Source of the DNA: a virus
Length of the DNA: 64,000 nucleotides
Virus record (IMG/VR): IMGVR_UViG_3300044946_000175
Span: 1 to 64,000 of that record
Direction: 5' to 3' (one strand)
Shown here: one piece after another, positions 2,709 through 38,853 of the stretch
Layout of the letters: the number at the start of each line of letters is the position of its first letter
How positions within the stretch are numbered: the stretch's first letter is position 1
Translations under genes and position numbers: made by a program
The notes under the pieces: generated by a model
The model's database searches: none
What the model was told of the DNA's origin: nothing
What the model saw: the letters and a program-made list of their open reading frames with translations, nothing else

Positions 2709-4283
2709 ATGAACGATCCTGACCTTTTGAATAAAATCCGTGACTTTGCCAAACGTGGTAAAAAGAATAATGCAACATTCGCAATTAATTACAATGGCGA
2801 TCAGATGAATATGGAGTTAATTGTTCAACTCGAAAACGGTGTATCCGCGGTGGCCAAAGCAACAAATTTTGAGGATCTTTTTAGACAAATTGAGGATCAA
2901 ATTTGAAACCGCAATAGTACATAAGCGATATTATCAGACTTTATTTACTAGCGGAGATCATAATGTCTTGGAAAGTTGAGAAATACGGCGACAGGCCCGA
3001 CACGTACGCACTCTTCGATCCATCCGGGTGTGTGGCCACGACTGGTACGAAAGAGCAAATGGACGCCGCGCTCGCTCACAACCAGCCCTCTGCATCAAAA
3101 ATCGAGCCGGAAATCAAACTTTCCGATGCCGAGGACTGGGACGTGGGCGATACAGTAATTGTGGTCTACTGGCGAGATTTTGTGGTCATGGAGCAGGACA
3201 AAGGCAATTGGGATATGGTCCACGGCACGGTGATATCGGTTGGGGCCACGAAGATTTGCCACGAAGTCGGACCTGCCTTCCCTCCTCGATGGGGTGGTGA
3301 CATGGAGGCAAACGAAAGATCGTCTCTGCGGCATCGGTCGAGGGAGTGGTGTTTTCATTCCGTTGAAGAAGCAAAAAAGGCAATTGAAAAGTTGCCTCCG
3401 AAGGGCAAGTAAATGATTTGCATTCCCGTACAAACTCCGAACCACAAGGACGACCATTTAGTAATCGTTCTTGACGTGGATAATTTTATTCGAATGGGTC
3501 AAGCCGATCCTGCTGAAGTAAAGTGCAAGGAACTCGGCAAACAACTCGTCAATCCTCGTATCATGATAACTCACGAGAAGATGACGCCGGATTTTGAAAA
3601 ACTCCTCAAGACTGGCGACGTGCGTAAGATCGTGGAGTTCCTGTCCCGTGGCTTCAAGTTCCTGCCGCATCTGGGCGACAGCGACGAAAAGCCGAAATCT
3701 ATTCTGAAAGGTAAGTAATGGAAGATCGAGAACCGCCCAAGCAAAAGAGCACCGGACCGATTCACATGAATTACGGCGACGAATCCAGGTCGGAAAGTCG
3801 AGGAGGATTAGTCAGTAATGTCGCGCATGGCTCGCAGCCACCAGTCTATCGAGAAGGGCCACAAGGAATGCCAATGCCTGAGATGGCAGCATCCTGTGAT
3901 GGGCCGCGTTACGATAACGGCCAGCGTCGTGAGGATGCTCTGGGAATGCTCGACCGGAAGATCGTCGAACTGGAGAGCAAGACGCGAGGTCTGGTTGCTC
4001 TTCGCAAAAACTTGGGCGAGAATCCAAGTCCTGAACTGGAAGAGATGGTCTGGCGGATCTTGCAGGGTGAATTCCGGAGAATGTAATGGACGGTCCTGAA
4101 GAACCTCCCAATCCTCTCTTGCAGCGAATAGCTTTTCTTGATCACGTGATTCGTTGTGGTCGGATGGGAATTGGGTGGAGTATGGATTTTTACGAACTGC
4201 AATTACTTCGCAGAGAACGTGAATGTTTAGCCAACAAGATATTCGAAGAATCTCTGATAAAATTAAGAAGGCAAAAGAAGTGA
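2709..4283 (+). other. Run of small hypothetical phage CDSs (2709-2906, 2963-3412, 3413-3718, 3718-4086, 4086-4283)
   Basis: Co-oriented, mostly abutting or overlapping ORFs; no recognisable domain. Confidence 0.6.
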
Positions 4284-6292
4284 AGGCTCCTGTCTGTCTC
4301 GTGATTACCTGTGACCAGCTTGCCGAACGCAAGGCGAAGTGCATCGAGCACTTTCGTGAGAAGGGCGTACGTGCCACGTTCATGCGTGGGTTGCATGGGG
4401 TGTCTGCCGGTCTGAGGACAGTCAGGGAATTCGAGACAGGACAGACCATCAGTAGCGGTCACGTCGCCTTGATTTTGAACCATTACACTGCATGGCAGTG
4501 CCTCGACTTGATCCTTCGCGACTCAGACGACTACGGTATCGTATTCGAAGATGATGCCGTGCTGCCGGACAACTTTTCTGAAGAGGTCTTTAAGGTCAAG
4601 GAGGAACTATTCCATCTTTTGCCGAAATGGGATCTAGTCTTCTTGGGTTCTGGTGATGCCGGAATCCGTACGTGGAACAAGATCACTGAGCGGCTTGGCG
4701 GTCCTACTTCACGTTATTGCCGACAGTCGTGGCCGTGGGGAAGTCACGCGCTCATGATCCGCAAGAAGGCAATCCCTATTTTGTCTCGACTCATGGCCGT
4801 TGCCGAACGGAATATGGATCAACAACTCTATGATCGCGTCCTCAAGGACAATCATCTCGAATGGTGCATGGTACTGCCTTCTCTCGTCCAGCAGAGAACT
4901 TACGACCACAAGTCCATCGGTATGCCTGAGTGGAAGCCGTCCACCCTCGATAATCCTGCCGAAGAGAAGACACAACAGCAGCCCTTCGAGGTAAGTCGCG
5001 AGCAGTACGCGGCGACAATGAAGTTGATCGATCCCTACGAATGCATCTATCGTGGGGAGTTTATGGAGGAAACAGGCATTGGTGCGGTGCAGGAAGAATG
5101 CTCTTATTGCGGCGGAACTGGAAGGATTTATGGCGAACGTCTCACTCTGGCGGATATACCGGAACAGTGTGGGATGTGCTGCAATGGATTCATCACGAAG
5201 AACAAGTCGATAGTCTTGTCGGAGTGCGCTCGTCTGAATGTACCCTGTCATGTTCGGGTAGATGTGAATGATGTGGTACTAGGAGAACGGAAAGTAATCT
5301 CGTGCGCGACCTGCGACGTTCGGTCGGAGATCCACCGCAATACGAACGTAGTCAAGCTGCCGATTCCGGACGGCCACTTCAATCCGTCAATGTGTCTGTA
5401 TCGCGGTGAACAACTGATCGTAGCTACTCGCGACTCCTGGGGCCATTCTGCATTAGGGTTGTGGAAACTGAAGAATAGCAAGGACGATTGGTTGGGAGAG
5501 TGGAGCGTCGAGCCAATCGGAAGTTTTCGGAGTTCGCATCCAGACGCTCCGAGATTGGAAGATCCTCGTCTACATCTTATGGATGGTTTTTATGCCGCTC
5601 TCAATTTGCCGGACAATTATCCTCCCAAGCTCGTGAGGGTTGGAACTGTAAAATTCAAAACCGATCTTTCTGGAATAGACGAAATACAAATTTACGATTC
5701 GCCTTTTGGTAACGCTTATGAGAAAAATTGGGTGCCATTCCTGTACTGCGGGATGCGACGGTGGATTTATGGGATCAAGCCAGAGCATATTATTTTGAAT
5801 CACAATGGCGAAGTTGTCTATAAGACAGACAATAAGTTGCCTTGGAAGGGCGGTGCATTGCGAGGTGGAGCAACACCAGTTCTTGTGCGAAAACCGGACG
5901 GAAGTCGTTGTTACTATCATTTCGCTCATGGCTGTCTCAAGACTCCCAAGGGAAACTGCTATACGATTGGTTGTGTCGTATTCGATTACGAACCGCCGCA
6001 TCGGGTTTTAAGGCAAACTGCTGTTCCTCTTGTCTGGCCGGAAGCATATCATGGCAACGAGGCAGTAGTTAAGCGGAACGTGGTGTTTCCAGGAGGAGCA
6101 GTACCCCACAACAATAATTGGTTTATAATTGCCGGAAGGGACGATACTGATTGCGTGCTTTATCGGCTTCCTTTTGAAGAAGTAGAAGCTGCTTTAACCG
6201 ACATTCCAGAAATCGACGAAGTCGTTTCGATAAGACAAACCCCTGTCTCCCTTGGTGTACTCGCAAAAGAAAGAAATGGTCTATTCGAATGA
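4280..6292 (+). CDS. Fusion: glycosyltransferase family 25 + Cys-rich zinc-binding region + GH130/GH43-like five-bladed propeller
   Basis: GT25 motifs 'LILNHYTAW..GIVFEDDA..WDLVFLG'; CSYCGGTG/CGMC; propeller motifs 'FNPS', 'LEDPRL', 'YEKNWVPF', 'LRGGA', 'VVFPGGAV', 'GRDD'; GTG at 4280 overlaps the upstream stop. Confidence 0.8.
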   Translation: MKAPVCLVITCDQLAERKAKCIEHFREKGVRATFMRGLHGVSAGLRTVREFETGQTISSGHVALILNHYTAWQCLDLILRDSDDYGIVFEDDAVLPDNFSEEVFKVKEELFHLLPKWDLVFLGSGDAGIRTWNKITERLGGPTSRYCRQSWPWGSHALMIRKKAIPILSRLMAVAERNMDQQLYDRVLKDNHLEWCMVLPSLVQQRTYDHKSIGMPEWKPSTLDNPAEEKTQQQPFEVSREQYAATMKLIDPYECIYRGEFMEETGIGAVQEECSYCGGTGRIYGERLTLADIPEQCGMCCNGFITKNKSIVLSECARLNVPCHVRVDVNDVVLGERKVISCATCDVRSEIHRNTNVVKLPIPDGHFNPSMCLYRGEQLIVATRDSWGHSALGLWKLKNSKDDWLGEWSVEPIGSFRSSHPDAPRLEDPRLHLMDGFYAALNLPDNYPPKLVRVGTVKFKTDLSGIDEIQIYDSPFGNAYEKNWVPFLYCGMRRWIYGIKPEHIILNHNGEVVYKTDNKLPWKGGALRGGATPVLVRKPDGSRCYYHFAHGCLKTPKGNCYTIGCVVFDYEPPHRVLRQTAVPLVWPEAYHGNEAVVKRNVVFPGGAVPHNNNWFIIAGRDDTDCVLYRLPFEEVEAALTDIPEIDEVVSIRQTPVSLGVLAKERNGLFE

Positions 6293-7944: not shown

Positions 7945-7976
7945 GAGAGCCCCAATCCTATGACTGGGGCTCTTTC
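7945..7976 (+). terminator. Hairpin upstream of the portal gene
   Basis: gagagcccca...tggggctcttt stem followed by a T-rich tract. Confidence 0.45.
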
Positions 7977-8031
7977 ATTTCTGCTGAATTTTGATACACT
8001 ATTCCAGTTCAAAGTCCACCGGAATAGTGTC

Positions 8032-10890
8032 ATGTCTGAAATTGATGTAGTTCGCCTTCGGCCCGACATTCCGACAAAGGCCGATTTTCATTCCGATCCA
8101 ACAAATCGGAAGCAGTGGACAATGGAAAATTTCCGCTTACCTAGCGGAGAAAGTATGCTAGGGCCGGACGCATTTCTAGTGCCTCCCAGTCGTGAGTTTA
8201 CTCAAATAGTTAATTCAGCAACCAAGGTTTATAGCTATCGTTTCGACGAAGCTATGAGGGACACATATGTAAACGCTCGTTCGATGATGAGAGACACGTT
8301 CATTCTCGGCCTTTTAGAAGAACGCATTCTTCCCACCATCAACCGCGACTGGCATCTCACCGTTGAAGATGAAAAAGATCCATTCCAGGTTCACGTTCGG
8401 GATAGCCTTACCAAAGTCGTGAAGAGAATCAAGGACTTCGACGCCATGCGTCGGCAGTTCATGATGGGGGCATGGTGGGGTCGTGGTGGCAATCAGTGGA
8501 ACTTCACACGACTGGAAGACTTGAACAATGCGTGGGGTATTGGAAATTGGGACCCCCTTCACGGCGATTCAATCCAGTTCACGTACGACGGCGTTCCGGC
8601 GATCATGCTCGACAGCATGACGACGGGTTGGTACGCGCGGAATGGAGCGAAATGGGGCATCGACTTGCGTTGGACGGATCGGGGTGGCACGGCTCTCTGC
8701 CTTCAGCGTCCATACTGGCGCGAGCGGTTTGGTATCTATCAGCACATCCGTCAGAAAGCTGATTATTTTGAAGGTGAACTGGCCGGATCGGTGCAGGGAT
8801 TCGGTTTGCGGGGTCAGGTCTATTGGCAGTATATCGCTCGATCCGATGCCTTGACGTGGATGCTGGCCTACATGCAGGCCGTCGGCATGATGGACCTGCT
8901 CGTCTTCAATTATCCAGCCGGGAATGAGGCCGCACGTCTCCAGCAAATCGCCAATGCTCAAGCCGTGATCGGTAAAGCCGCCATCGTCTGTCCTCGTAAT
9001 CCGCAGGGGAACTGGCCAGCCATCGAACAGATTCAGATGAATGAGGCCGGACTGAAGGCGTTACAAAACCTCGTGGCGGACTACTTTGATCGGAACATCG
9101 AGAGAATGATCGTCGGTCAAAGCATGTCGTCTGGCGGCGGACAGATGCAGGGGTTGGGCGATACGGGACGGGCATTTTTGGCGAAGGCAACTAAAGACGA
9201 GATTTTGATTCATGATGCAAATCGTCATGATAATGTATTGACTTATGATCTACTTGCGCCTCTCAAACGGTACAATTTCCCCACAGCTAAGTTCCCGGTT
9301 TATTTCAAGTCGCTCCTGCCGAATACAGAAGCAGCAGAGAAAGTTCGGAATGGTCTGGACCTCGTAAGCATTCAAGTGCCGATTAAGATGAACGAGTTGC
9401 GAGAGGCGGCTGGTTACGCTCATCCAGAGCAGGATGATGAAGTGGCAGGTGGACCTCCTCCAATGATGCCGATGGACCCGATGGGAATGTCAGGTGAAGG
9501 CGCGCCTCCCATGCTTCCGGCTGCTGGCGGCGCAACTACATTCGCGAATGCTGGCGGAGTCCAGGAACCGATGCCATTCTCGCGGGATTCTTGGGACATG
9601 CCGACAAGATTTATGGGAACGGCTCCGGGTGGGATGGGGACCACGCCATCTGGATTTGGTTTTCCTGGAGGAAGTAATACTTATCTGCCAGGAGGAAACT
9701 TCGGCAAAAGGCAAAAGAAGATCGGATTTACTCGATACGATTATCCAGTTCAGCCAATGACGCAAGAGCAGCCTTATCCGCGCGTGCTGGTGCGCGGGGA
9801 TACTATATGTGTGGATACCGGATTGGAGAGATTTACGCTTTATCCAGGCGATCAGCTTTACTCGGAATGGATTTCCTGGGTCGCTGCCAACAGACAAAAA
9901 GTTCGTTGGGCATCGGTTAGCGACCCGTCGATTGCTCCTCAGTTCGGTCAGACGCTGATTGCTCCCGAACAGTATCACAATCGACGCAGGCCGACGCACT
10001 ATAAGTACTACGATCAGATATTTGAAGATGCTGGTGGTGCATGGAAAGTACCTGATATCAAACATTACATCAACATGATGAGTATTCAGCCCCAAGCATT
10101 AAGTGTGAGCAAACTAGCGATTAACAATCTCAAACCAGGAGAAGAAGAGGCAGAAGACGAACTGCCTGGCCATCCAGAATTTATCGAACGTGCAGACCAG
10201 ACAGACCTCGAATTTCCGATCATGGTTATTCGTTACCCAGATGGAGATTGGATATGTGACGGCGTTCATCGATTGTGGAAGGCAAGAGCTAAAGGCATGA
10301 AGACTATTGAAGGCTATCTTATCACTAAAAACCAACTTGACGAAATTCCCCATCGCAGGTTACATGAGCAGTACCGGGGCTGGAAAAGACCGACGTACTA
10401 TCGGGCCGATACTGGAGGTCGAGAGCACTCTGAAACCGATGGCAAGTTCACTAATAAGAAAAATCCAGGTGGTAAGGGGGAGAACACTAAAAGACAAAAT
10501 ATTAAACGTCCCGAGTGGCGTTCGGAGAACCTGACCGATCCGAATACTCGCGTATCTAAAATTCTCAGTCATGTCAAGAGCGTGCCGCGACGGACAATCG
10601 ATCAGGCATGGAAAAAGGTAACTGGACAGTACGAGAAATTAAAGACAAAATATGGCCCGACATACGCACGCCTCATAGTAGGAAGCGCCATCGCGACACT
10701 GCCAATTCCAGTACCGGGTATTTCTCTCGCGACAGCGGGAACTATTACGGCAATTGCCATGCTTCATAAACGATTATTCGGCAACAAGAAACAGCCAACA
10801 CAGAATCGACGACTGCCGTTCGATCCTCGAACACAGGCTCGTCTTTTCCTTGATCGTTGTAGAATGAGACGCCATGCCACGACTAGCTAA
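8032..10890 (+). CDS. Portal protein (Mu gp29/DUF935-like) with a ~470-aa C-terminal extension including a ParB/Srx-like domain
   Basis: 'D..ILGLLEER', 'GFGLRGQVYW', 'IERMIVGQSMSS', 'LLAPL..YNFP' are portal-like; extension contains 'FPIMVIRYPDGDWICDGVHRLWKA'; first gene of the head module; ATG 8032 preferred over 7960. Confidence 0.75.
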   Translation: MSEIDVVRLRPDIPTKADFHSDPTNRKQWTMENFRLPSGESMLGPDAFLVPPSREFTQIVNSATKVYSYRFDEAMRDTYVNARSMMRDTFILGLLEERILPTINRDWHLTVEDEKDPFQVHVRDSLTKVVKRIKDFDAMRRQFMMGAWWGRGGNQWNFTRLEDLNNAWGIGNWDPLHGDSIQFTYDGVPAIMLDSMTTGWYARNGAKWGIDLRWTDRGGTALCLQRPYWRERFGIYQHIRQKADYFEGELAGSVQGFGLRGQVYWQYIARSDALTWMLAYMQAVGMMDLLVFNYPAGNEAARLQQIANAQAVIGKAAIVCPRNPQGNWPAIEQIQMNEAGLKALQNLVADYFDRNIERMIVGQSMSSGGGQMQGLGDTGRAFLAKATKDEILIHDANRHDNVLTYDLLAPLKRYNFPTAKFPVYFKSLLPNTEAAEKVRNGLDLVSIQVPIKMNELREAAGYAHPEQDDEVAGGPPPMMPMDPMGMSGEGAPPMLPAAGGATTFANAGGVQEPMPFSRDSWDMPTRFMGTAPGGMGTTPSGFGFPGGSNTYLPGGNFGKRQKKIGFTRYDYPVQPMTQEQPYPRVLVRGDTICVDTGLERFTLYPGDQLYSEWISWVAANRQKVRWASVSDPSIAPQFGQTLIAPEQYHNRRRPTHYKYYDQIFEDAGGAWKVPDIKHYINMMSIQPQALSVSKLAINNLKPGEEEAEDELPGHPEFIERADQTDLEFPIMVIRYPDGDWICDGVHRLWKARAKGMKTIEGYLITKNQLDEIPHRRLHEQYRGWKRPTYYRADTGGREHSETDGKFTNKKNPGGKGENTKRQNIKRPEWRSENLTDPNTRVSKILSHVKSVPRRTIDQAWKKVTGQYEKLKTKYGPTYARLIVGSAIATLPIPVPGISLATAGTITAIAMLHKRLFGNKKQPTQNRRLPFDPRTQARLFLDRCRMRRHATTS

Positions 10891-18650: not shown

Positions 18651-20189
18651 ATGCCTCCGACAATGATTCAGCCCGGTTTCAACGTCCAACACCGTCACGC
18701 TCGCGCCGTGCCGACGATGTATGCCGCGCCCGGTTCCATCGATCCTCGCAGCATTCCCCGTCCGCAGCTTCCGGCACCCAATCCGGCGCTTGGTGAGCGG
18801 ATGCGTCAACGCCGTTGGCAGGAGCGAGAGCGAGAGACGTACTACCAGCTTCGGCACGCGCCGATGCCGCACCAGTACACCCAAGACCGACCACATCTTG
18901 AATATGGCGGCGGTTCGGGCGACCCTCGTACTCAGTTTCTTCCGCAAGGTCCGCCCACGGGATTCCAGGCTCGTGGTCTGAATCAGTCGTACATCGACGC
19001 TGGCGGACGTGCGCCAACCGTATACTCCGATCCCCGTGCGCTCGTGGCTCGTGCGTCTCGTCCCACCTATGCCTACAATCGCGTTCTAGGTGTACAGAAA
19101 TCGCCGACCATGTACGCCGGTCTGGGAACGTGGCCCAATCAGTACTTTCCTGGTGGTTCCAATACGTACATCGCTTCCTACGAAGCGACTGGTCTGCTCC
19201 TCAAGTACACGCGAAACCCGACGTTCTTCCGCATCAACCGCTATCTCAAAGAGATGACGGTCAAGAACGACATGGGTTACTATCTGACGCTCGATGGTGA
19301 CTCTCCTTACCGCGTGCTTTCCATCAATGACTATCTCTGGGAAGATGGCGTGGACGCTCCCGGTGGCCGTCAAGAACGGCAGGGATTCGCATTCCAGCCA
19401 TACCGCACCACTCGGTACACTTTCCCGTTTTCTTTGGGCAGGAAGGGCGTGCAGCAGGCGGTATGGGCAATCGTGGCTGAACATGCCGCGATGCAGGCTG
19501 CGAAGGCCATGACGGTACGGACGTTGATCATGGTGAATTTGATCAATGCTGCCGCAAACTGGACCGGTCCCGGTTTCACGAACACATCCGCTGCTTCCGG
19601 CGCATGGTCCACGCAGGGAGGGGCTTCGGTTAATCCGATTCCTTACCTGCAAAACGACATCAACACGGCATTAATCGGTGTTGAGCAAGCAACTGGTGGC
19701 ATCGTCACGGATGAGGAAGCACTGACCTTTACCATGAATCCGCAGGAAGGTCGAAAGGTATCGGCTGCCGACGAGTACCGTGGATACATCAAGGGTTCTC
19801 CTGACGCTCTCGCTGCCATTACCGATCAGAGAAATCCGAACCGCAAGTACGGACTGGCTCCGTTCATCTACGGCTTGCGACTGGTGATCGAGAATGCAAT
19901 CGTGGTGACGACACCCAAGTCCGCCAATGTCGCTTCGCCAGCCGCGCAGTCGAGGTCGTACATCTGGCCGCAGGCGATTGCCATGATCGCTTCCAGGCCG
20001 CAGGGGATCGTTGCACCAGAAGAACAAACGTTGGACTTTTCGACAATTTGTGCCCGCTTCTATGAAAATCAGACCGTAGAAACCAAGTCCGATCCAGATC
20101 AACGCCGGGAAATGGGTCGTGTTGTGGAGGACTATTGCCTGTCGCTTTCGGCCCCGCAGACCGGGTGGCTTTTCACCGGAGCTAGCTGA
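18651..20189 (+). CDS. Major capsid protein (HK97-fold by inference) with a ~160-aa Pro/Arg/Tyr-rich propeptide
   Basis: Synteny after protease and decoration gene; 'LTFTMNP', 'GLAPFIYGLRLVIE', 'RVVEDY....APQTGWLF'; ~350-aa core. Confidence 0.8.
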   Translation: MPPTMIQPGFNVQHRHARAVPTMYAAPGSIDPRSIPRPQLPAPNPALGERMRQRRWQERERETYYQLRHAPMPHQYTQDRPHLEYGGGSGDPRTQFLPQGPPTGFQARGLNQSYIDAGGRAPTVYSDPRALVARASRPTYAYNRVLGVQKSPTMYAGLGTWPNQYFPGGSNTYIASYEATGLLLKYTRNPTFFRINRYLKEMTVKNDMGYYLTLDGDSPYRVLSINDYLWEDGVDAPGGRQERQGFAFQPYRTTRYTFPFSLGRKGVQQAVWAIVAEHAAMQAAKAMTVRTLIMVNLINAAANWTGPGFTNTSAASGAWSTQGGASVNPIPYLQNDINTALIGVEQATGGIVTDEEALTFTMNPQEGRKVSAADEYRGYIKGSPDALAAITDQRNPNRKYGLAPFIYGLRLVIENAIVVTTPKSANVASPAAQSRSYIWPQAIAMIASRPQGIVAPEEQTLDFSTICARFYENQTVETKSDPDQRREMGRVVEDYCLSLSAPQTGWLFTGAS

Positions 20190-20306
20190 ACAAAGAGAAG
20201 AATTCAAATTGCTTGACTCTTGTCTAGCTTTTGGTAAAAATAACAAGCCATGTCCTCGTAAGACATGGCTTGTTTCACATACCAACTCTATACTGGAGAG
20301 TCAGTC

Positions 20307-21125
20307 ATGCTCGACGTTGATTTTACACATCCGAACAATCGCTGGACATTAATCGGACCAGGAAGCAGAAAAGGATATGTGAAGGTTCAGTGTTCATGTC
20401 CAGACAAAACGATCAAGGAAATTTACGTCTATGACATCAATAAAGGCAAATCTCTTTCTTGTGGTTGTCTTCGTAAAGAAGTGATGAGTGAGACAAAAAG
20501 AACACACGGGATGTCGAAAACGGCAATCTACAATACTTGGTGTCTAATCATCAGAAGAACGGAAAACGAAGACGATCTCAGATGGGAGGATTACGGTGCT
20601 CGTGGAATTAAGATGTGTGCGAAGTGGCGAGAATCCTTTGAGGCATTTTATGCTGATATGGGAGATCCGCCGTCCGATGAGTATACCATTAATCGAATCG
20701 ATAATGATGGAAATTACGAACCGGGAAATTGTCATTGGGCAACTGATTCGGAGCAACAAAACAACAAACGTAACAACCGACTGATCGAATGGAATGGCCG
20801 CACTCAAACGATGGTTCAGTGGGAGCGTGAACTGGGTTTTCGGGAAGGCACGCTCAAGAATCGGCTCGATCAAAACAACTGGACTGTCGAGCGGGCGATG
20901 ACGACTCCGGTAAGGACAAAGAAGAAAATCACATACAATGGAAAGACGCAGGCCATCGATGAATGGGCTGAGGAGTACGGACTGACTCCCGCGATGCTGC
21001 GATCTCGGTTAAATCTAGGAATTCCATTCGAGACTGCTATAGCAACTCCTGCCTATCATTGGAAAGGCAGAGGAAATCCGATTCCGAGAGAAGCAGAAGA
21101 AGGCGAATCATGCCACAAGAAATGA
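20307..21125 (+). CDS. Free-standing HNH homing endonuclease with C-terminal DNA-binding repeats
   Basis: 'SCGC', 'YGARGIKMCAKW..SFEAFYADMG', 'TINRIDNDGNYEPGNCHWAT..EQQNNKR'; GGAG 8 nt before ATG 20307. Confidence 0.85.
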   Translation: MLDVDFTHPNNRWTLIGPGSRKGYVKVQCSCPDKTIKEIYVYDINKGKSLSCGCLRKEVMSETKRTHGMSKTAIYNTWCLIIRRTENEDDLRWEDYGARGIKMCAKWRESFEAFYADMGDPPSDEYTINRIDNDGNYEPGNCHWATDSEQQNNKRNNRLIEWNGRTQTMVQWERELGFREGTLKNRLDQNNWTVERAMTTPVRTKKKITYNGKTQAIDEWAEEYGLTPAMLRSRLNLGIPFETAIATPAYHWKGRGNPIPREAEEGESCHKK

Positions 21126-21442
21126 AAGGCCGAAGAATCCCCGTCGTCGATCCGATGGCCGATCCTTATGACTTGCTTAAAGAGCCGGGGGATTATTATG
21201 GACCGACGATGTTTTGTGGCTATTTGTCAGTTTGGTACATACTTCCAAATGCAAAAGATGATCCACGAGCAATCGGATTGCATCACTGCAAGATCGACCC
21301 TCCGCAGTTTCATTCGTTGATTGAAGAGTCGGATGGAACTCTGACCCTTCGAAATTCCATCGGAGCAGGCCCACCTAACTACTACTGGCATGGATTTTTG
21401 AATCAGGGTGATTGGATGCTGACACAGAGGGATAAAAAGTGA
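21110..21442 (+). CDS. Hypothetical protein (DUF6527-like motif)
   Basis: 'DGTLTLRNSI....YWHGFLNQGDW' C-terminal motif. Confidence 0.45.
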   Translation: MPQEMKGRRIPVVDPMADPYDLLKEPGDYYGPTMFCGYLSVWYILPNAKDDPRAIGLHHCKIDPPQFHSLIEESDGTLTLRNSIGAGPPNYYWHGFLNQGDWMLTQRDKK

Positions 21443-22287
21443 ACATCGATCAAGCACGAGACGGCGGATCGAGTATCGCGGATGAGCCGCCAGCGGAGCC
21501 GTACGTCCCGAACGAAGAGGCCACTACACTCTTGCGGAAGTACGCCGCCAATCCAACGTTTTATCGAATCAATAAGTACGCCGCGTCCACCCGTGTTGAC
21601 AGGCTGACTGAAACGCAAAAGCAGTTCGTGCCAGAGACTACTCGGTACATGTACTACTTCGGTCTTCCGCGAGTCAATAAAAGTGACATTGCCGTGGCTG
21701 AGTACGCCGCGATGCAGGTCGCAAAAGCAATGACAGCGCGGACCATGTTTGCCGTGGATACGCTAAGTTGCCGGTCGCTGTGGGGAAGTGCGGCAAGGTA
21801 CAAGTTTCCAAAGACAAAAGAGGAATGGGAATTCTTTTTGGAGGTGTGGGCAGGTCGAAATAAGTCGCTAGACCGCGAGAACTTCGTGTTGGTGATGAAT
21901 CCCACTCGGGCGAGCGATTGGGCGCAGTCCAAAGAAGTAGTCGAATGGCTCAATAGTGGTGTCGGTCAACGCATGGCAGATGTAATGGATCAGAGAAATC
22001 CGAACCGCAAGTATGGGCTTCACTCGCGACCATTCGGTATCAAGACGGTTGTCGAGAATGCAATTAAGGTCGATCTCGAAATCGAACCCAAACGCCAATA
22101 CGTCTGGCCGAGAGAACTCTGCTGCGTGCTTTACGTTCCGCACGAGCATGGTGATCCGTTCGACGCCACACTTCGGATGAGCATGGAAGAAGAAATGACA
22201 GTTGAGCAGAAGAGCGACAGAGGCAGAGTTGTTGAGGACTACTCGTTCATCGCTCCGAATTCCAGGACTGGTTGTTTGTTAGTGTGA
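21439..22287 (+). CDS. Internally deleted paralog of the major capsid protein
   Basis: Collinear with 18651-20189: EAT.LL.KY..NPTF.RIN.Y, TTRY, VAE.AAMQ.AKAMT.RT, MNP, DQRNPNRKYGL, ENAI.V, Y.WP, GRVVEDY. Confidence 0.9.
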   Translation: MNIDQARDGGSSIADEPPAEPYVPNEEATTLLRKYAANPTFYRINKYAASTRVDRLTETQKQFVPETTRYMYYFGLPRVNKSDIAVAEYAAMQVAKAMTARTMFAVDTLSCRSLWGSAARYKFPKTKEEWEFFLEVWAGRNKSLDRENFVLVMNPTRASDWAQSKEVVEWLNSGVGQRMADVMDQRNPNRKYGLHSRPFGIKTVVENAIKVDLEIEPKRQYVWPRELCCVLYVPHEHGDPFDATLRMSMEEEMTVEQKSDRGRVVEDYSFIAPNSRTGCLLV

Positions 22288-22322
22288 AAGACAAAACAAG
22301 AAATCCAAACTAAGGAGAATTT

Positions 22323-22610
22323 ATGTCTGAGGAACCAACCAGAACGAAGATCGTGATTTTTAACTATCCTGCTGGTAACGAGTTGGCCAAAAAACAGCAG
22401 ACAGAAAATGCTGCGATGCTCGTCGATTGCATGACCATCGCGTGCCCTCGCGATCCGCAGGGAAACTGGCCAGCGGTTGAGGAGGTTGTTGCAATAGAGA
22501 TCAGCGACATTCGATTGACGGCGGCAATCGAAGTGTTGAAACTTGGTAAGGCAGAGGAGAGGTTGCGAAAAGAAGCCCTTGACGTGGTTGTGGGGTATTT
22601 GAAAGGCTGA
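22323..22610 (+). CDS. Small protein carrying a fragment of the portal protein
   Basis: IFNYPAGNELAKKQQTENA...CPRDPQGNWPAVE vs portal VFNYPAGNEAARLQQIANA...CPRNPQGNWPAIE; AAGGAG RBS. Confidence 0.85.
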   Translation: MSEEPTRTKIVIFNYPAGNELAKKQQTENAAMLVDCMTIACPRDPQGNWPAVEEVVAIEISDIRLTAAIEVLKLGKAEERLRKEALDVVVGYLKG

Positions 22611-22621
22611 AAAGATAAATC

Positions 22622-22783
22622 ATGACCAGAAATCCCAAATATGCTGCTGTTTTAGCGATTCTTCAGCTTGTCTTGGGGATTTATTTGCTGGACGCAGGAA
22701 AGACTTTGTTGGGAGGTTTTACGATGTGGTGCTGCGGAGTGAACACAGTGCTTATGATTAATACACAACCAAAAACGACGTAG
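22622..22783 (+). CDS. Small membrane protein (53 aa, below the ORF-track cutoff)
   Basis: MTRNPKYAAVLAILQLVLGIYLL...; stop codon abuts the next ATG. Confidence 0.5.
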   Translation: MTRNPKYAAVLAILQLVLGIYLLDAGKTLLGGFTMWCCGVNTVLMINTQPKTT

Positions 22784-23155
22784 ATGTTGTATCTTTTTAC
22801 CACCGCTGCCGAACTTGCCAAGTCGCGTTCACGCCCGACTGTGGGCATTATGATCCATCTCGACACGGGCAAGAAATATTTCTTTCCCTCTCCCACGACA
22901 GTCATTCAAGGACAGCCGGTTCCTGCATTTCTTGGGGGGATTTTAGCCGAGCAAGCACTGGGTCGCGAACTGATCGAACTGCCGAGCACGAAGATCGAAT
23001 ATGGTTTAAATGAGAAGGGTACTTGGACCTGTCTGAAGGTGCTGAAACATGCTATAACAGAAGAAGCACCGGCGGATCAGTCCGTGCCGGTATCGCCGAA
23101 AGAGCCCACTCCGGACGATTATGCTGCCGTGGCGGTGATAGGAAAAGACGGATGA
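22784..23155 (+). CDS. Hypothetical protein
   Basis: Translationally coupled on both sides. Confidence 0.6.
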   Translation: MLYLFTTAAELAKSRSRPTVGIMIHLDTGKKYFFPSPTTVIQGQPVPAFLGGILAEQALGRELIELPSTKIEYGLNEKGTWTCLKVLKHAITEEAPADQSVPVSPKEPTPDDYAAVAVIGKDG

Positions 23156-23673
23156 TTACCTACGAAGAATTTGAGCAATTGGTGACGAACGCTCAGCGCG
23201 CCCTGGACCAATTGAAGGAAGGTTTGGTGCAGTACAAGCCGCCACGTCCGACTGGCCCCTGCGCCGAAATCACCATTGACGAGAAACAACACGTATTTTT
23301 TGTCGAGTTCACGGATAATAAAGGGCCGTTTCTGAGACAGACATACGAAGGTGATTTTGCTTCTCCAGATCCTCCACTTCAGCCAGTCATGCAGACGATC
23401 ATGACTTCTGCTTTGATCTGGATAGAAAAACAATGTCCAGGAATCATGGAGGATAATGTCAGCGTGGTCTTGACGCAGAGACAGGCCAGATTGTATGGAC
23501 GATCCTTTGAAAATAAGGCACATATCAAAGGCGCACCGGATGCTTTGACTGCTGTTTGCGAGCAGAGGAATCCTCATCGGCGGTACTCGCTCTGTCCATT
23601 CCTTTACGGAATTCGGTTGCGGATCGAGAATCGGAAAGAAGAAGATCTTGTGGTATTGCAGGAGGTGGGATGA
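23152..23673 (+). CDS. Protein whose C-terminal half is a fragment of the MCP (putative A-domain)
   Basis: HIKGAPDALTAVCEQRNPHRRYSLCPFLYGIRLRIEN vs MCP YIKGSPDALAAITDQRNPNRKYGLAPFIYGLRLVIEN. Confidence 0.85.
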   Translation: MITYEEFEQLVTNAQRALDQLKEGLVQYKPPRPTGPCAEITIDEKQHVFFVEFTDNKGPFLRQTYEGDFASPDPPLQPVMQTIMTSALIWIEKQCPGIMEDNVSVVLTQRQARLYGRSFENKAHIKGAPDALTAVCEQRNPHRRYSLCPFLYGIRLRIENRKEEDLVVLQEVG

Positions 23674-24266
23674 TGTCGATACCCCAAACATCCAACTCCA
23701 GTCTCGTACCGTATGTTTCGGCGATCCAGACATTCGGTTTCTTCTCGCAAAAAGTCATAGCTGATATGCTGAAGGCAAACACTGATTCGCCTCGTCCTTC
23801 TTATCTAGCGTGTATTGATCCGAACAACTACTTTGGTCGGAAATGGTTGCAGCACATTGGATTCGGTGCCGGAGAAATTGAATCAGCGGTTGTCGTGGCT
23901 TCTCGGTACACACCAGCCGATCTTATGAATTTGACCGGCGTGAGCCAGATTCTACTTCAAGGCTTGAACGCAGCCAGGGCGCTATGGTCTGCCTACAAAA
24001 TTTTGAAACCTGGTACGGCTCGTCCTGAAGAATGTCCTGCTGCTCGTGAAAGTTTTGAGATGCTTACGCAGTTGAGAGATGGCGAAAAACTATTTAGCTT
24101 CCAAGAATCGGAAAAAGCAGGACTTGTTGCCGTGATTCCGCCTAATCCTTATGCCCTCGCGCCAGGGCAGTCTACAATTGTCCCTCGCCTGGTACGTCTC
24201 TTTCCCACATATGGTATCAATTCATTACTGAATCGTGGTGGTTACAATCGTGGCGGTGACTGCTAG
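23670..24266 (+). CDS. Head-tail adaptor (Mu gp36/DUF1320-like)
   Basis: 'GEIESAVVVASRYTPADL', 'SFEMLTQLRDGEKL'; GGAGG RBS; position after the capsid genes. Confidence 0.65.
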   Translation: MMSIPQTSNSSLVPYVSAIQTFGFFSQKVIADMLKANTDSPRPSYLACIDPNNYFGRKWLQHIGFGAGEIESAVVVASRYTPADLMNLTGVSQILLQGLNAARALWSAYKILKPGTARPEECPAARESFEMLTQLRDGEKLFSFQESEKAGLVAVIPPNPYALAPGQSTIVPRLVRLFPTYGINSLLNRGGYNRGGDC

Positions 24267-24850
24267 ATATGCGTCCAGATTTTTCTTTTAAGTATGTTGC
24301 AGATTAAAGCCGGACTCACGTTGTAATGTTCGGCTATCTGGCGTTGTGATACGAATTCACCAGCAGCATAGCAACGGCGGATTTCAAGGACGATGCTTTC
24401 GTCCAAAACAGCCATGTTGTTCTTGGCTCCGTTCTGATCTCGGTTATGTCCGTGAGACACACGATCATCGATGTTTTCTTGTTTAGTTCCCCAACGAAGA
24501 TTCTCGACTCGATTATTTTTGGCATCACCGTTCAGATGGCGACATTCCATGCTTTCTGGACGGGGACCAACAAAAGCAAATAAAACAAGATGATGGACTG
24601 AATATCGTTTGTGTTTTTTGTTTGGTCCGCATAAAGTCACACGGCAATGTCCATATGTGCTGCTTGGATCGGTAAGCAAATCGGACCAGTTATTATTGAG
24701 CAAGTTAGGGTTCGTAGTTCGGCGAGTTTGCACACTTCCATCATCTCCAACCCGATACCCCGAATAGCCCAGAAAATCCAGCGTCCGATAGCAAACGTCG
24801 GAAATTTCGTCGTAAAAGAACTGGTGGCTGGTAGAATTGACATCGAACAT
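24263..24850 (-). CDS. HNH homing endonuclease (NUMOD4/HNH_3-like with C-terminal HTH)
   Basis: 'GYRVGDDGSV', 'VHHLVLFAFVGPRP..MECRHLNGD..NNRVENLRWGT..EN'. Confidence 0.9.
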   Translation of the reverse strand: MFDVNSTSHQFFYDEISDVCYRTLDFLGYSGYRVGDDGSVQTRRTTNPNLLNNNWSDLLTDPSSTYGHCRVTLCGPNKKHKRYSVHHLVLFAFVGPRPESMECRHLNGDAKNNRVENLRWGTKQENIDDRVSHGHNRDQNGAKNNMAVLDESIVLEIRRCYAAGEFVSQRQIAEHYNVSPALICNILKRKIWTHI

Positions 24851-24977: not shown

Positions 24978-25595
24978 ATGACCGAACTCATCGACCGGCG
25001 AAAAGCAATCCAGGCAGTAGCATCTTCTGCTGTCGCTGCACTGATTCCCGTTTCAGAGTCCACTTCGGCTCAGTCCGAACCTCCGCACGTCGCGCCGGGT
25101 GAGTGCATTACCGCTTCTGTTGTCGTGACCGTGGTCGACAAGTGGGAGAAGAACAAAACCTCTCAGTTTCCGAATGGCTTTATCATTCCATCGGCAGTGA
25201 TTCGAAAAGCTCTGGATGACAAGCTCTTTGGTTCGGTCTGCATTCGCGCATCGAACCACATCAATGTAAAGAATGAATGCGATGCAGAGATTGTCGGTCA
25301 TGTCGCGGGTTGGCGATTTGTCGAATTTTTCGTCGGTTCGGATGGGAGCATTGTGCCGCTCAAAAACAAATGTCTTGTGGCTGACATCATCGTGCAAGCC
25401 AAGGCATTTATCGGCAAAGCCGTTCGCCTGTCCAGTTTCGATGTTTATGGTCCGGATGGTGTCTGCACGGAGATTCGCGGCGTGGACTGCGTGTTCTTGA
25501 CTGACAATCCGTGCTGGCCGGACGAAAAGATTCCTGAAGGCAAGTATGTCAATATTGGTGTGTGCAATGAAGGGGTTGACGTGCCACTCAAATAG
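24978..25595 (+). CDS. Divergent prohead-protease-like protein with a Tat-like N-terminus
   Basis: IDRRKAIQAVASSAVAAL; NH..IVGHV..CLVADII..RLSSFDVY..VFLTDNP parallels GH..LAGFY..AIVADEL..YRSSEYY..ALLARDP of 15504-18002. Confidence 0.5.
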   Translation: MTELIDRRKAIQAVASSAVAALIPVSESTSAQSEPPHVAPGECITASVVVTVVDKWEKNKTSQFPNGFIIPSAVIRKALDDKLFGSVCIRASNHINVKNECDAEIVGHVAGWRFVEFFVGSDGSIVPLKNKCLVADIIVQAKAFIGKAVRLSSFDVYGPDGVCTEIRGVDCVFLTDNPCWPDEKIPEGKYVNIGVCNEGVDVPLK

Positions 25596-38132: not shown

Positions 38133-38735
38133 TTATGTGACATGCTTCCATCTGGCCCGCGTCACAGCGCCTCGTACTGCACCAAATGGTTTATTATATT
38201 TTCTACAAATCTGAGTAATCATAGCTCCACTATCGTATTCGATTCGCATAATTCGAACCAGGTCTTCCGTTAGTACGGCATTTCCATTACCTTCTCCGCG
38301 ACTGCTTGTTCCGTGTTTTATTTTGTCTGCTGCATTGCCTTGCGGTGTATCCCATCTGAGATTGGATAATTTATTGTTTTGCTGATCGCCATCGTTATGG
38401 CATCCTTCCATTCCAAGCGGACGAGGGCCAACGAACGCTTCAAGAACTAGACAATGAACGAGAATTTCCTTTCTGTAGTAATGGCGGTAAAGACCAAATA
38501 TTGAATACGATTTGTTATTTAACCTTGATTTACGTCGTTTCCATACAGTTCCGACTATTAAGACTGATCCGCTTCCGTTACCTTTGCCTCTTTTGCCGTG
38601 ATATGAACAATTCCAAACCGATCCGTCATCCCCTACTCGATAGCCTGGAAATCCCATAAAATCCAGCTTGCGGTAACAAACATCGTTTTCAGGATCGCAA
38701 TGGAATTCTGGAATGCTAGAATAGCCGTCTGACAT
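38133..38735 (-). CDS. HNH homing endonuclease, paralog of 24263-24850
   Basis: 'DVCYRKLDFMGFPGYRVGDDGSV', 'VHCLVLEAFVGPRPLGMEGCHNDGD..NN.LSNLRW'; ATG 38735 has GGAG upstream. Confidence 0.9.
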   Translation of the reverse strand: MSDGYSSIPEFHCDPENDVCYRKLDFMGFPGYRVGDDGSVWNCSYHGKRGKGNGSGSVLIVGTVWKRRKSRLNNKSYSIFGLYRHYYRKEILVHCLVLEAFVGPRPLGMEGCHNDGDQQNNKLSNLRWDTPQGNAADKIKHGTSSRGEGNGNAVLTEDLVRIMRIEYDSGAMITQICRKYNKPFGAVRGAVTRARWKHVT

Positions 38736-38853
38736 GGCCTTTGCTCCAGTTAAGCAAGGTTGTGTGGGTGCGGGTGACAGGGGATCACCCGCACCCAAAT
38801 TTTATGAAACAGTCGGAGTGAGGAAAGTGCCGAGTCCTCCAGGCAACGCTTTA

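What the first reader, a model, noticed from the sequence alone, without database searches (positions are those of the whole stretch)
22323..22610. Mini-protein carrying only a ~45-aa segment of the portal
FNYPAGNE..K.QQ..NA.......CPRDPQGNWPAVE matches the portal segment encoded at ~8900-9030 (FNYPAGNEAARLQQIANA...CPRNPQGNWPAIE), followed by an unrelated helical tail. In Mu-gp29/HK97-type portals the region between the stem helices is the clip, which docks terminase and adaptor (inference from position). It has a strong AAGGAG RBS. A free clip mimic could regulate packaging or decoy a portal-sensing NLR-like Avs protein.
Basis: partly seen in the sequence, partly recalled or inferred. Interest (0 to 1): 0.75.

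Follow-up and report, generated by a model that had tools for sequence, protein, structure and literature searches.

The report
Free-standing copy of portal clip domain
An uncultured soil phage carries a small extra gene that is a stand-alone, long-kept copy of the outward-facing "clip" of its DNA-packaging portal; related phages put the same piece into other small proteins and even into a GroES co-chaperonin, so it looks like a selected molecular mimic whose target is still unknown.

Summary
ORF 22323..22610 (95 aa, AAGGAG 5 nt before the ATG) matches portal residues 313-358 at 25/46 identities (E 8e-19). A profile comparison limits the homology to residues 8-55.

AlphaFold models place the portal segment as strand-helix-strand-strand between the two long stem helices, which is the clip. 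The mini-protein has the same fold plus a two-helix tail.

The gene has no orthologue. An exhaustive search found 11 other non-portal proteins with the clip: small stand-alone proteins, DUF2158 fusions, a chimera with a terminase fragment, and four GroES proteins with the clip inserted in the roof hairpin.

These copies keep the clip core and tip loops but lose the portal-invariant stem-junction residues.

The mini-gene lies in a variable island between the putative capsid gene and a Mu gp36-like adaptor gene. The island is absent from three relatives and also holds two partial copies of the putative capsid gene.

Function is untested. My best guess is a soluble clip mimic, most likely a decoy for clip-docking host sensors. 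The rivals are a terminase or adaptor regulator and a neutral remnant.

The scan has noted similar mini-clip genes on other DNA (I did not check those notes).

The parts
22312..22317 (+). AAGGAG ribosome-binding site, 5 nt upstream of the ATG
   Evidence: read directly from the sequence
22323..22610 (+). mini-protein gene, 95 aa
   Evidence: intact ORF. Present letter for letter as a singleton cluster in the protein collection. AF2 mean pLDDT 84.6.
22344..22487 (+). clip-domain module of the mini-protein (residues 8-55): strand 8-16, helix 20-32, strand 37-43, strand 52-57
   Evidence: BLASTP residues 10-55, E 8e-19. hhalign residues 8-55, probability 99.2%. AF2 pLDDT above 92 for residues 11-50.
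22488..22607 (+). tail without detectable homology, modelled as a two-helix hairpin (63-74, 79-94)
   Evidence: not aligned by hhalign. AF2 pLDDT 74-80.
7960..10890 (+). portal gene (976 aa): Mu-type portal domain plus a long C-terminal extension
   Evidence: Pfam PF06074, E 1.3e-24. phrog_113 portal. Foldseek hits to solved portals.
8896..9033 (+). parent segment: the portal clip domain (residues 313-358)
   Evidence: BLASTP. Its position between the stem helices in the AF2 model.
20265..23673 (+). variable accessory island that holds the mini-gene. Contents: HNH endonuclease (20265..21125), 282-aa partial paralogue of the putative capsid protein (21439..22287), mini-gene, 53-aa hydrophobic ORF (22622..22783), 123-aa ORF (22784..23155), and a 173-aa protein with a capsid-protein fragment (23152..23673).
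   Evidence: In three related phage records the putative capsid gene is followed after 332, 579 or 1,297 bp by the homologue of 23670..24266. Paralogy to the putative capsid protein. HNH: phrog_3377, E 1.5e-65. G+C is 41-55% in the island against 56-60% in the capsid gene.
18651..20189 (+). putative major capsid protein (512 aa), parent of the two partial copies that flank the mini-gene
   Evidence: Named by gene order only. No Pfam, PHROG, NCBIfam or PDB sequence hit. It is 57-60% identical in the relatives.
23670..24266 (+). conserved 198-aa gene just downstream, candidate Mu gp36-like head-tail adaptor
   Evidence: Atlas: feature score 0.94 with 181/256 shared features; structure TM 0.82 by the row, to clusters carrying PF07030 in 15% and 38% of members. 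34-49% identical homologues in all three relatives. No HMM hit.
24263..24850 (-). second HNH endonuclease gene, bounding the region
   Evidence: Pfam HNH_3, 8.1e-13; phrog_59, 2.9e-34

Best explanation
The 95-aa gene encodes a soluble, free-standing copy of the portal's clip domain. [quoted passage not shown] A private two-helix tail replaces the stem helices and stabilises the copy.

Shown:
- It is a true, old paralogue of the clip and is kept at the protein level.
- It retains the clip core and the two tip loops (FNYPxGN and PRxPxGNWPAVE).
- It has lost the residues that tie the clip to the portal stem.
- It sits in a non-core, variable island next to two partial copies of the putative capsid protein.
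- Related phages carry the same module on other carrier proteins, including GroES.

Inferred: the protein works as a molecular mimic. It offers the docking face of the clip away from the portal ring and so competes for a factor that binds the clip.

Most likely target (inference only): a host immune sensor that recognises the portal through its clip, as SpbK does and as Avs4 does in part. A lone clip could occupy such a sensor without giving it the clustered or whole-portal signal that it needs to fire.
For: 1. Homology and fold: sequence; models.

2. Old and selected. Of 25 identical residues, 13 differ by synonymous codons. The residues kept are the ones kept across the family. In 13 non-portal copies against 71 portal modules, these stay near-invariant in both sets: F316, N317, Y318, P319, G321, A325, N332, A333, G338, R346, P348, W352, P353, A354, V355 and E356. 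Portal-invariant M311, D312, K339, Q357, M360 and N361 are free to vary in the copies. From the strand-helix-strand-strand topology, with both ends joined to the stem, the two conserved loops must lie at the distal tip (my inference).

3. Recurrence. An exhaustive phmmer run over 1.84 billion representatives gave 47 hits at E<=1e-3: the query itself, 1 low-complexity false hit, 34 portals or portal-position hits, and 11 non-portal proteins.
- Four of the 11 are Cpn10/GroES split by the module at the roof hairpin.
- Those four are only 44-49% identical to each other yet carry the insert at the same place, so the chimera has persisted.
- One is a clip+DUF2158 fusion.
- One (P0082) also carries a terminase fragment (38% over 48 aa, E 6e-6; tblastn hits on all four terminase genes).

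4. Tie to the resident portal. A related record (G002) has a 105-aa protein whose degenerate clip shares its own portal's unusual residues. It groups with that portal at SH-aLRT 99.

5. Accessory status. The island is absent from 3 of 3 related records that I examined in full.

6. The proteins copied here and in relatives (portal, putative capsid, terminase) are the ones bacterial sensors most often detect.
- PMC12847820 (passages read): SpbK docks on the clip domains of the assembled portal and is activated by the resulting clustering. A clip-helix mutation allows escape. [quoted passage not shown]
- bioRxiv 10.64898/2026.01.04.697583 (passages read): further Avs families sense the portal and the capsid protein.
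Against: - No binding partner is known, and no experiment or expression data exist.
- The host and its defence systems are unknown.
- A decoy that binds a sensor could also trigger it. A heptameric GroES display of clips would cluster a SpbK-like sensor rather than disperse it.
- The mini-protein's clip is not especially close to its own portal. The own portal ranks 23rd of 71 portal modules (49% identity against a best of 53%), so close mimicry of the resident portal is not evident here.
- The gene is a singleton with no orthologue among 5.8 billion clusters.
- Only 1 of 5 related IMG/VR records has a second clip copy, although three of the five are fragments.
- The gene sits in the late morphogenesis operon directly upstream of the adaptor candidate. 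That fits an assembly role equally well.
Confidence: 0.35

Rival explanations
1. Regulator or chaperone of the phage's own packaging and neck assembly. The free clip binds the large terminase or the gp36-like adaptor. It either holds them soluble or idle until procapsid portals are available, or it times the switch from terminase to neck proteins.
For: - The clip is the established docking site for terminase and adaptor (general knowledge of portals; stated in PMC12847820, passage read).
- The gene is co-oriented with, and about 1 kb upstream of, the adaptor candidate in the late operon.
- The tip loops that the copies retain are also near-invariant in the 71 portal modules compared, as expected for a surface that meets conserved phage partners.
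- One relative's protein fuses a terminase N-terminal fragment to a clip, which could be read as a link between interacting parts.
Against: - Three related phages with the same portal, terminase and adaptor genes lack the gene and the whole island. Assembly therefore does not need it.
- Partner sites on portals are usually formed between neighbouring clips in the ring (general knowledge), and a lone clip cannot reproduce that.
- This reading does not explain why partial capsid copies sit beside the gene.
Confidence: 0.25
2. Portal-directed subunit mimic. The free clip docks side by side on the clip of a portal monomer or incomplete ring. There it caps or poisons ring assembly, either of a co-infecting related phage (competition) or of the phage's own portal (dosage control). 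The partial capsid copies would act likewise on capsid assembly.
For: - Clip domains contact their neighbours in the dodecamer (stated for YonE in PMC12847820, passage read).
- The neighbouring genes are partial copies of the putative capsid protein, another self-assembling protein.
- The mini-clip is about equally distant from all portals of the clade (45-53% identity), so it is not tuned to its own portal.
Against: - It would be expected to harm the phage's own assembly.
- No evidence of lateral binding was obtained, because this pair was not co-folded.
- The residues lost in the copies include the stem junctions but not obviously a lateral face, so nothing specific supports the idea.
Confidence: 0.12
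3. Neutral leftover. The gene is a fragment captured by illegitimate or homing-endonuclease-associated recombination in a recombination hot spot. It is translated or not, and has no function.
For: - The island starts with an HNH endonuclease gene, and another HNH gene lies just after it.
- The site is variable between relatives.
- The gene is a singleton.
- Fragment boundaries differ between the non-portal copies; some run on into the next stem helix. That is what random capture would give.
Against: - Synonymous sites are saturated, yet the frame is open, the start has a strong ribosome-binding site, and the family-invariant fold residues are kept.
- The model is confident (pLDDT above 92 over the module).
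- In the GroES lineage the insert has survived divergence to 44-49% identity.
- The G002 copy follows its own portal's peculiarities.
Confidence: 0.15

Closest known systems
Clip domain of Mu-type portal proteins (Pfam Portal_Mu PF06074; solved relatives JBD30 8rka, G20c 4zjn, Mu 9khx)
   Same: Sequence homology (E 8e-19) and the same strand-helix-strand-strand fold. Both keep the family-invariant residues of the core and tip loops.
   Different: It has no stem, wing, crown or tunnel loop. A private two-helix tail replaces the stem. The portal-invariant junction residues are lost. It is encoded as a separate 95-aa gene in an accessory island.
Truncated, diverged paralogues of head genes in giant phages (SPN3US gp117, a cryptic paralogue of prohead protease gp245; PMC5694885, passages read)
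   Same: A phage keeps a short, diverged second copy of one of its own head-morphogenesis proteins. The function is unknown, and similar copies occur in related phages.
   Different: A different parent protein: protease there, portal clip here. gp117 keeps most of an enzyme fold, whereas this gene keeps only a 48-residue docking module, and that module also occurs grafted into unrelated carriers.
Clip-directed bacterial sensors: SpbK-YonE (PMC12847820) and, in part, EcAvs4-portal (as summarised in the same paper)
   Same: They show that the clip is a surface that host immunity reads. That is the premise of the decoy reading.
   Different: These are host proteins and their target, not phage mimics. 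No phage-encoded clip decoy is described there, nor in my searches. The host and sensors of this phage are unknown.
Phage co-chaperonins of the GroES family (Cpn10, PF00166)
   Same: Four relatives of the mini-protein's module sit inside otherwise ordinary Cpn10 sequences.
   Different: The window's own record has no Cpn10. The clip insert at the roof hairpin turned up in none of my paper searches.

Membership tests
Portal protein (Portal_Mu, PF06074) | Full portal fold: wing, two stem helices, clip, tunnel loop, crown | tested here: not met
   Only residues 8-55 align to the portal profile. No Pfam hit for the 95-aa protein. The AF2 model has the clip plus two short helices only. It is a fragment paralogue, not a portal.
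Portal clip domain (sub-domain of PF06074 portals) | Sequence homology to the segment between the stem helices | tested here: met
   BLASTP E 8e-19. hhalign probability 99.2%. The segment lies between helices 234-259 and 313-339 of the portal model.
Portal clip domain (sub-domain of PF06074 portals) | Three strands and one helix, with both ends on the same side | tested here: met
   Mini model: E8-16, H20-32, E37-43, E52-57, pLDDT above 92. The portal model has the same order. Searches of solved structures with the small model were uninformative: Foldseek gave nothing at E<=0.001. In VIA-align all Z were <=4.0, with Mu portal 9khx residues 220-277 only at Z 2.7, rank 49.
Portal clip domain (sub-domain of PF06074 portals) | Assembly into a 12-fold ring that docks terminase and adaptor | not testable with these tools
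   The oligomeric state was not modelled. The one co-fold (with the adaptor candidate) gave no verdict and is recorded only under Tried and rejected.
Core head-tail connector / neck protein | Conserved in related phages at the same place in the morphogenesis operon | tested here: not met
   tblastn of the mini-protein against three full related records hits only their portal genes. In all three, the capsid gene is followed directly by the adaptor-candidate homologue.
Anti-defence decoy / mimic protein | Binds a host immune sensor and blocks its activation | not testable with these tools
   The host and its sensors are unknown, and there are no expression data. Support is only circumstantial: the accessory island, the neighbouring partial capsid copies, and literature showing that the clip is sensed (PMC12847820).
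GroES / Cpn10 (PF00166) | Cpn10 fold flanking the module | tested here: not met
   No Pfam hit for the mini-protein and no Cpn10 anywhere in the record. The Cpn10 context applies to P0077-P0080 only.

The most novel reading that the evidence does not exclude
Phages of this clade, and by unchecked notes of this scan other clades too, keep a repertoire of self-derived fragments of exactly the virion and packaging proteins that bacterial pattern-recognition immunity reads: portal clip, capsid protein and large terminase. The fragments are displayed alone or on carrier scaffolds such as a GroES heptamer. They would act as competitive antagonists that occupy sensors without delivering the whole-fold or clustered signal needed for activation. 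That would be a new class of anti-defence genes, made from the phage's own structural genes.
Probability: 0.25. Interest if true: 0.9.

Novelty: new variant of a known kind. Interest (0 to 1): 0.6.

Why it matters
The portal clip is the hub where terminase, neck proteins and at least two kinds of bacterial immune sensor meet the phage head. A free clip, kept by selection and re-used on several carriers, is a natural, ready-made probe for whatever reads that surface.

If it is a decoy, it defines a way for phages to blunt pattern-recognition immunity with pieces of their own conserved proteins. It would also explain similar orphan mini-genes seen in other phage groups. If instead it regulates packaging or neck attachment, it is a new control point in head assembly.

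Either way the hypothesis is directly testable with a 95-residue protein. The GroES-clip chimeras are a striking, undescribed architecture (none found in my paper searches).

Tried and rejected
Searches that found nothing useful:
- tblastn of the mini-protein and of the portal against 50,697 phage records: no match.
- Single-sequence scans of IMG/VR with the mini-protein and with the portal: no relative.
- A genome-contig scan with the portal alignment: none.
- A word-indexed search for near-length homologues: only the query itself.
- A profile search with a module-only alignment: 8 small proteins, all but two (P0085, P0086) already known. P0086 is identical to the G002 small protein.
- An IMG/VR scan with the GroES-clip protein P0077: 11 loci, all ordinary 90-93-aa GroES without an insert.
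- Pfam, PHROGs and NCBIfam gave nothing for the mini-protein and most neighbours.
- PDB sequence searches gave nothing for the portal profile, the adaptor-candidate profile or the putative capsid protein.
- The record has no Cpn10 and no Terminase_6N match. The large terminase was found by PHROGs at 117098..118798.

Structure searches with the small model:
- Foldseek gave no match at E<=0.001; the top rows were tubulin noise.
- VIA-align against 48,161 chains gave only Z<=4.0 for generic strand-helix-strand folds, with the Mu portal at Z 2.7, rank 49.
- The ESM Atlas gave unnamed clusters and no usable lead for the mini-protein.

Co-fold: mini-protein with the adaptor candidate gave 'no answer' (score 0.00 against a mark of 0.32; the controls were not run). 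This is neither support nor evidence against binding. Terminase, portal and homo-oligomer co-folds were not run, because the cap is one job.

Expression: no RNA holder is listed. Three soil DNA metagenome runs hold the stretch or parts of it, and one may be the source. Laying their contigs showed identical fragments and no variants, so there was no polymorphism to analyse.

Ideas I dropped:
- Gene conversion or nucleotide-level function. The only exact repeat of 16 nt or more between the island and the rest of the genome is a 26-nt stretch shared by the capsid paralogue and the capsid gene. Identical-codon fractions (12/25, 50/103, 13/36) look like saturated divergence.
- The 205-aa ORF 24978..25595 as a copy of the 832-aa head protein.
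- The mini-protein as a core neck protein: rejected by synteny.

Origin of the copies: unresolved. On a 51-column tree, 12 non-portal modules fall on one side of a branch (SH-aLRT 89), with warnings that long branches meet. AU tests reject none of the alternatives:
- all 13 non-portal modules as one clade, p 0.45;
- P0077 with its presumed own portal, p 0.21;
- the mini-protein with its own portal, p 0.27.
Only the G002 copy groups firmly with its own portal (SH-aLRT 99).

Limits:
That P0068, P0083, P0077 and P0076 lie on the same contigs as portals P0045, P0028, P0061 and P0013 is therefore inferred only from equal contig lengths.
- Five of the 34 'portal' hits (P0070, P0071, P0072, P0075, P0081) were judged by the position of the module and not checked against Pfam.
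- Supplementary files of papers were not consulted.
Full report
What is there.

The window is the first 64 kb of a 119,161-bp IMG/VR virus record, with CheckV completeness of 85%. ORF 22323..22610 (+) encodes 95 aa. AAGGAG lies at 22312-22317, five bases before the ATG.

The portal is the 976-aa product of 7960..10890. Its residues 106-485 match Pfam Portal_Mu (E 1.3e-24), and it also matches phrog_113.

BLASTP aligns mini residues 10-55 with portal residues 313-358: 25/46 identities, no gaps, E 8e-19. A six-frame search of the whole record finds only these two sites. An all-against-all BLASTP of 1,050 ORFs gives the same pair. A profile comparison with a 24-sequence portal alignment aligns residues 8-55 only (probability 99.2%), so the 40-residue tail is unrelated.

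Which part of the portal it is.

I modelled portal residues 50-510 with an alignment of 24 homologues (mean pLDDT 70.5). The segment corresponds to model residues 264-309. It forms strand 264-270, helix 274-285, strand 291-297 and strand 306-309, at pLDDT 77-86. It lies between long helices 234-259 and 313-339. After these come a disordered loop (340-354) and a long helix (355-390). This is the canonical order stem helix, clip, stem helix, tunnel loop, long wing helix.

Foldseek matches the model to solved portals: JBD30 8rka at E 1.6e-10, then G20c, P74-26 and Mu.

The SpbK paper describes the clip of another portal in the same terms. It has three strands and one helix, connects the two stem helices, and forms the base of the ring where terminase and tail dock (PMC12847820, passages read).

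The mini-protein, modelled with 27 sequences, has the same elements: E8-16, H20-32, E37-43, E52-57, with pLDDT above 92 for residues 11-50. Two helices follow (63-74 and 79-94, pLDDT 74-80).

Is it kept by selection?

Of the 25 residues identical between the copy and the portal, 12 use the same codon and 13 differ synonymously. The duplication is old.

I compared 71 portal modules with 13 non-portal modules column by column.
- The non-portal copies keep F316, N317, Y318, P319, G321, A325, N332, A333, G338, R346, P348, W352, P353, A354, V355 and E356 (10-13 of 13 in each column).
- Residues that are invariant or nearly so in portals are free in the copies: M311, D312, K339, Q357, M360 and N361.

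Both ends of the module join the stem. The loops after strand 1 (YPxGN) and between strands 2 and 3 (PRxPxGNWP) must therefore sit at the far tip, and the lost residues sit at the stem junction and the near loop. This is my inference from topology, because I had no access to coordinates. The copies thus keep the fold and the exposed tip and drop what ties the clip to the rest of the portal.

Relatives.

The gene has no orthologue. A word-indexed search of 5.8 billion clusters returned only the query itself.

An exhaustive phmmer run over 1.84 billion representatives returned 47 proteins at E<=1e-3:
- the query itself;
- one low-complexity false hit (P0067);
- 34 portals or proteins with the module at the portal position; 29 of these were also found as portal homologues, and 5 were not checked against Pfam;
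- 11 non-portal proteins (sequences).

The 11 non-portal proteins are:
- small proteins with the module at the N-terminus (P0068 111 aa, P0073 64 aa, P0083 155 aa);
- a fusion to DUF2158 (P0074; a second one, P0085);
- proteins with the module in the middle or at the C-terminus (P0069, P0076, P0082);
- four Cpn10/GroES proteins (P0077-P0080) in which Pfam sees the Cpn10 domain split in two.

The four GroES proteins are only 44-49% identical to each other. In all four the insert sits at the same point, after the AVGPG motif, where GroES has its roof hairpin. One of them also lacks part of the mobile loop. That chimera has therefore survived long divergence. This is the strongest sign that a clip outside a portal can be functional.

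P0082 additionally contains a stretch similar to the N-terminal region of the large terminase, up to a GKT motif. It is 38% identical over 48 aa (E 6e-6), and tblastn hits the terminase genes of all four phage records.

P0069, P0082 and P0083 match the portal beyond the clip, into the next stem helix. The fragment boundaries therefore differ between the copies.

Link to the resident portal.

Contig lengths tie P0068, P0083, P0077 and P0076 to the contigs of portals P0045, P0028, P0061 and P0013.

Among 71 portal modules, the presumed own portal ranks as follows:
- P0077: 1st. They share GD and GNWEAVE.
- The G002 small protein: 2nd, tied.
- P0068 and P0083: 4th.
- The window's mini-protein: 23rd (49% against a best of 53%).
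- P0076: 47th.

In the related IMG/VR record G002, a 105-aa ORF 3 kb upstream of the portal carries a degenerate clip (FYYPAED...VVSRPTTYTGPMVE). It mirrors that portal's own odd residues (FYYPTGD...VVPRPVNYNGPMVE). It groups with that portal at SH-aLRT 99.

For the other 12 copies the 51-column tree cannot decide between one old origin and several. They form one side of a branch at support 89, with long-branch warnings, and the AU tests reject nothing.

Only 1 of 5 related IMG/VR records has a second copy. Those records are 18-82% complete.

Genomic setting.

- The 282-aa product of 21439..22287 is a partial paralogue of the 512-aa protein of 18651..20189 (30% identity, E 7e-31, with large internal gaps).
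- Residues 78-160 of the 173-aa product of 23152..23673 match residues 331-415 of the same protein (42% identity, E 2e-21).
- The 205-aa ORF 24978..25595 has no similarity to the 832-aa head protein.
- These two pairs and the portal/mini pair are the only paralogue pairs among head genes in the record.

The 512-aa protein is the putative capsid protein by gene order only. No family or PDB hit supports the name.

tblastn of the window's genes against three fully fetched relatives shows that their capsid gene is followed after 332, 579 or 1,297 bp by the homologue of the 198-aa gene 23670..24266. The block 20265-23673 is absent from them. That block holds an HNH endonuclease, the capsid paralogue, the mini-gene, a 53-aa hydrophobic ORF, a 123-aa ORF and the 173-aa protein. 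The gap in G002 seems to hold a relative of the 123-aa ORF. I judged this by eye; it was not scored.

The 198-aa protein resembles Mu gp36-type adaptors in the ESM Atlas (feature score 0.94; structure TM 0.82 by the row). This is a lead only.

A second HNH gene lies at 24263..24850 on the other strand. G+C falls from 56-60% in the capsid gene to 41-55% in the island.

The mini-gene is therefore an accessory gene in a variable spot of the late operon, not a core neck gene.

How it most likely works.

Shown: the protein is a selected, soluble copy of the clip that keeps the tip and loses the stem ties. It is non-core, it sits beside partial capsid copies, and the same module recurs on other carriers.

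Inferred: it acts as a mimic that competes for something that binds the clip.

Three classes of clip binders are known: neighbouring clips, terminase and adaptor, and host sensors.
- SpbK docks on the clips of the assembled ring and is activated by the resulting clustering. A clip-helix mutation allows escape.
- Further Avs families sense the portal and the capsid protein (bioRxiv 10.64898/2026.01.04.697583, passages read).

A lone clip could occupy such sensors without providing the cluster or the whole fold. Together with the accessory location and with the fact that the proteins copied (portal, putative capsid, terminase) are the commonly sensed ones, this makes me rank the decoy reading first, at 0.35.

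The other readings rank as follows:
- Regulator or chaperone of terminase or adaptor: 0.25.
- Portal-directed subunit mimic: 0.12.
- Neutral leftover: 0.15.
- Something else: the remainder.

Points against the decoy reading:
- No sensor or host is known.
- A decoy may trigger the sensor it binds.
- A heptameric GroES display would cluster a sensor rather than disperse it.
- This mini-clip is not particularly close to its own portal.

The single co-fold allowed (mini with adaptor candidate) gave no verdict. No RNA run holds the region.

What is known.

I found no description of a free-standing portal clip, a clip decoy or a GroES-clip chimera in full-text searches.

The nearest published parallel is the cryptic truncated paralogue of the prohead protease in SPN3US-like giant phages. 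[quoted passage not shown]

Notes of this scan report similar mini-clip genes in a crAss-like phage, in huge groundwater phages and in another soil phage with a Mu-type portal. I did not check them. They suggest that the phenomenon is wider than this clade.

Verdict.

The gene belongs to a sparse but recurrent set of extra-portal clip modules that are under selection. Its function is open.

I class it as a new variant of a known kind: a known domain in a new, free-standing and grafted form. I score interest at 0.6. It would score higher if the self-derived decoy idea proved true.

Noticed in passing
proteins P0077, P0078, P0079, P0080 (not in the window): GroES/Cpn10 proteins of related uncultured phages carry the roughly 48-aa portal clip inserted at the roof hairpin. 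The four are 44-49% identical with the insert at the same site, and P0079 also lacks part of the mobile loop. The window's own record has no Cpn10.
   Followed up: partly
protein P0082 (not in the window): This 325-aa chimera combines an N-terminal domain, a stretch similar to the N-terminal region of the large terminase up to a GKT motif (E 6e-6), and a C-terminal portal clip.
   Followed up: partly
window 21439-22287 and 23152-23673: Two intact ORFs on either side of the mini-gene are partial paralogues of the 512-aa putative capsid protein (30% identity, E 7e-31; and 42% over 85 aa, E 2e-21). All three share the QRNP(N/H)R(K/R)Y motif region.
   Followed up: partly
window 21988-22013 and 19824-19849: A 26-nt exact repeat links the capsid paralogue and the capsid gene. 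It covers the conserved DQRNPNRKY codons. It is the only exact repeat of 16 nt or more between the island and the rest of the record, and it is probably chance given the run of identical residues.
   Followed up: yes
window 7960-10890 and portal homologues P0003-P0066: Portals of this clade are 567-2,075 aa long, with variable C-terminal extensions. The precomputed Pfam labels on these include 2'-5' RNA ligase-like (PF13563), ParB (PF02195), and in a few an ADP-ribosyltransferase-toxin-like or ATLF-like domain. They may be cargo domains fused to the portal.
   Followed up: no
related records G001:C1:16240-18210 and G003:C1:32601-34988: The large terminase homologue aligns in two blocks separated by about 350 bp (G001) and about 790 bp (G003). 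It is contiguous in the window's record and in G002. An intervening element (intron, intein or endonuclease gene) is possible.
   Followed up: no
window 557-1147, 20265-21125, 24263-24850, 38133-38798; record 67276-67818, 88613-89122: The record holds many HNH endonuclease genes, and four of them are mutual paralogues. Two bracket the region that holds the mini-gene.
   Followed up: no
window 22622-22783 and 22784-23155: A 53-aa hydrophobic ORF and a 123-aa ORF follow the mini-gene, and neither has a family hit. The 579-bp gap between capsid and adaptor genes in G002 encodes a peptide that looks related to the 123-aa ORF (GAKHFFPGGT against GKKYFFPSPT). I judged this by eye.
   Followed up: no
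window 4223-6292: The 689-aa protein just upstream of the portal region is conserved in all three relatives (36-42% identity). It has weak glycosyltransferase-25 and GH130-like Pfam matches below the curated cut-offs. It is not the terminase, which lies at 117098..118798 of the record.
   Followed up: no
proteins P0054 and Atlas rows: There are faint hints of a Planctomycetota host. One source names portal homologue P0054 'TIGR02996 family', and Planctomycetota is the commonest phylum in one Atlas row. The runs that hold the DNA are soil metagenomes.
   Followed up: no
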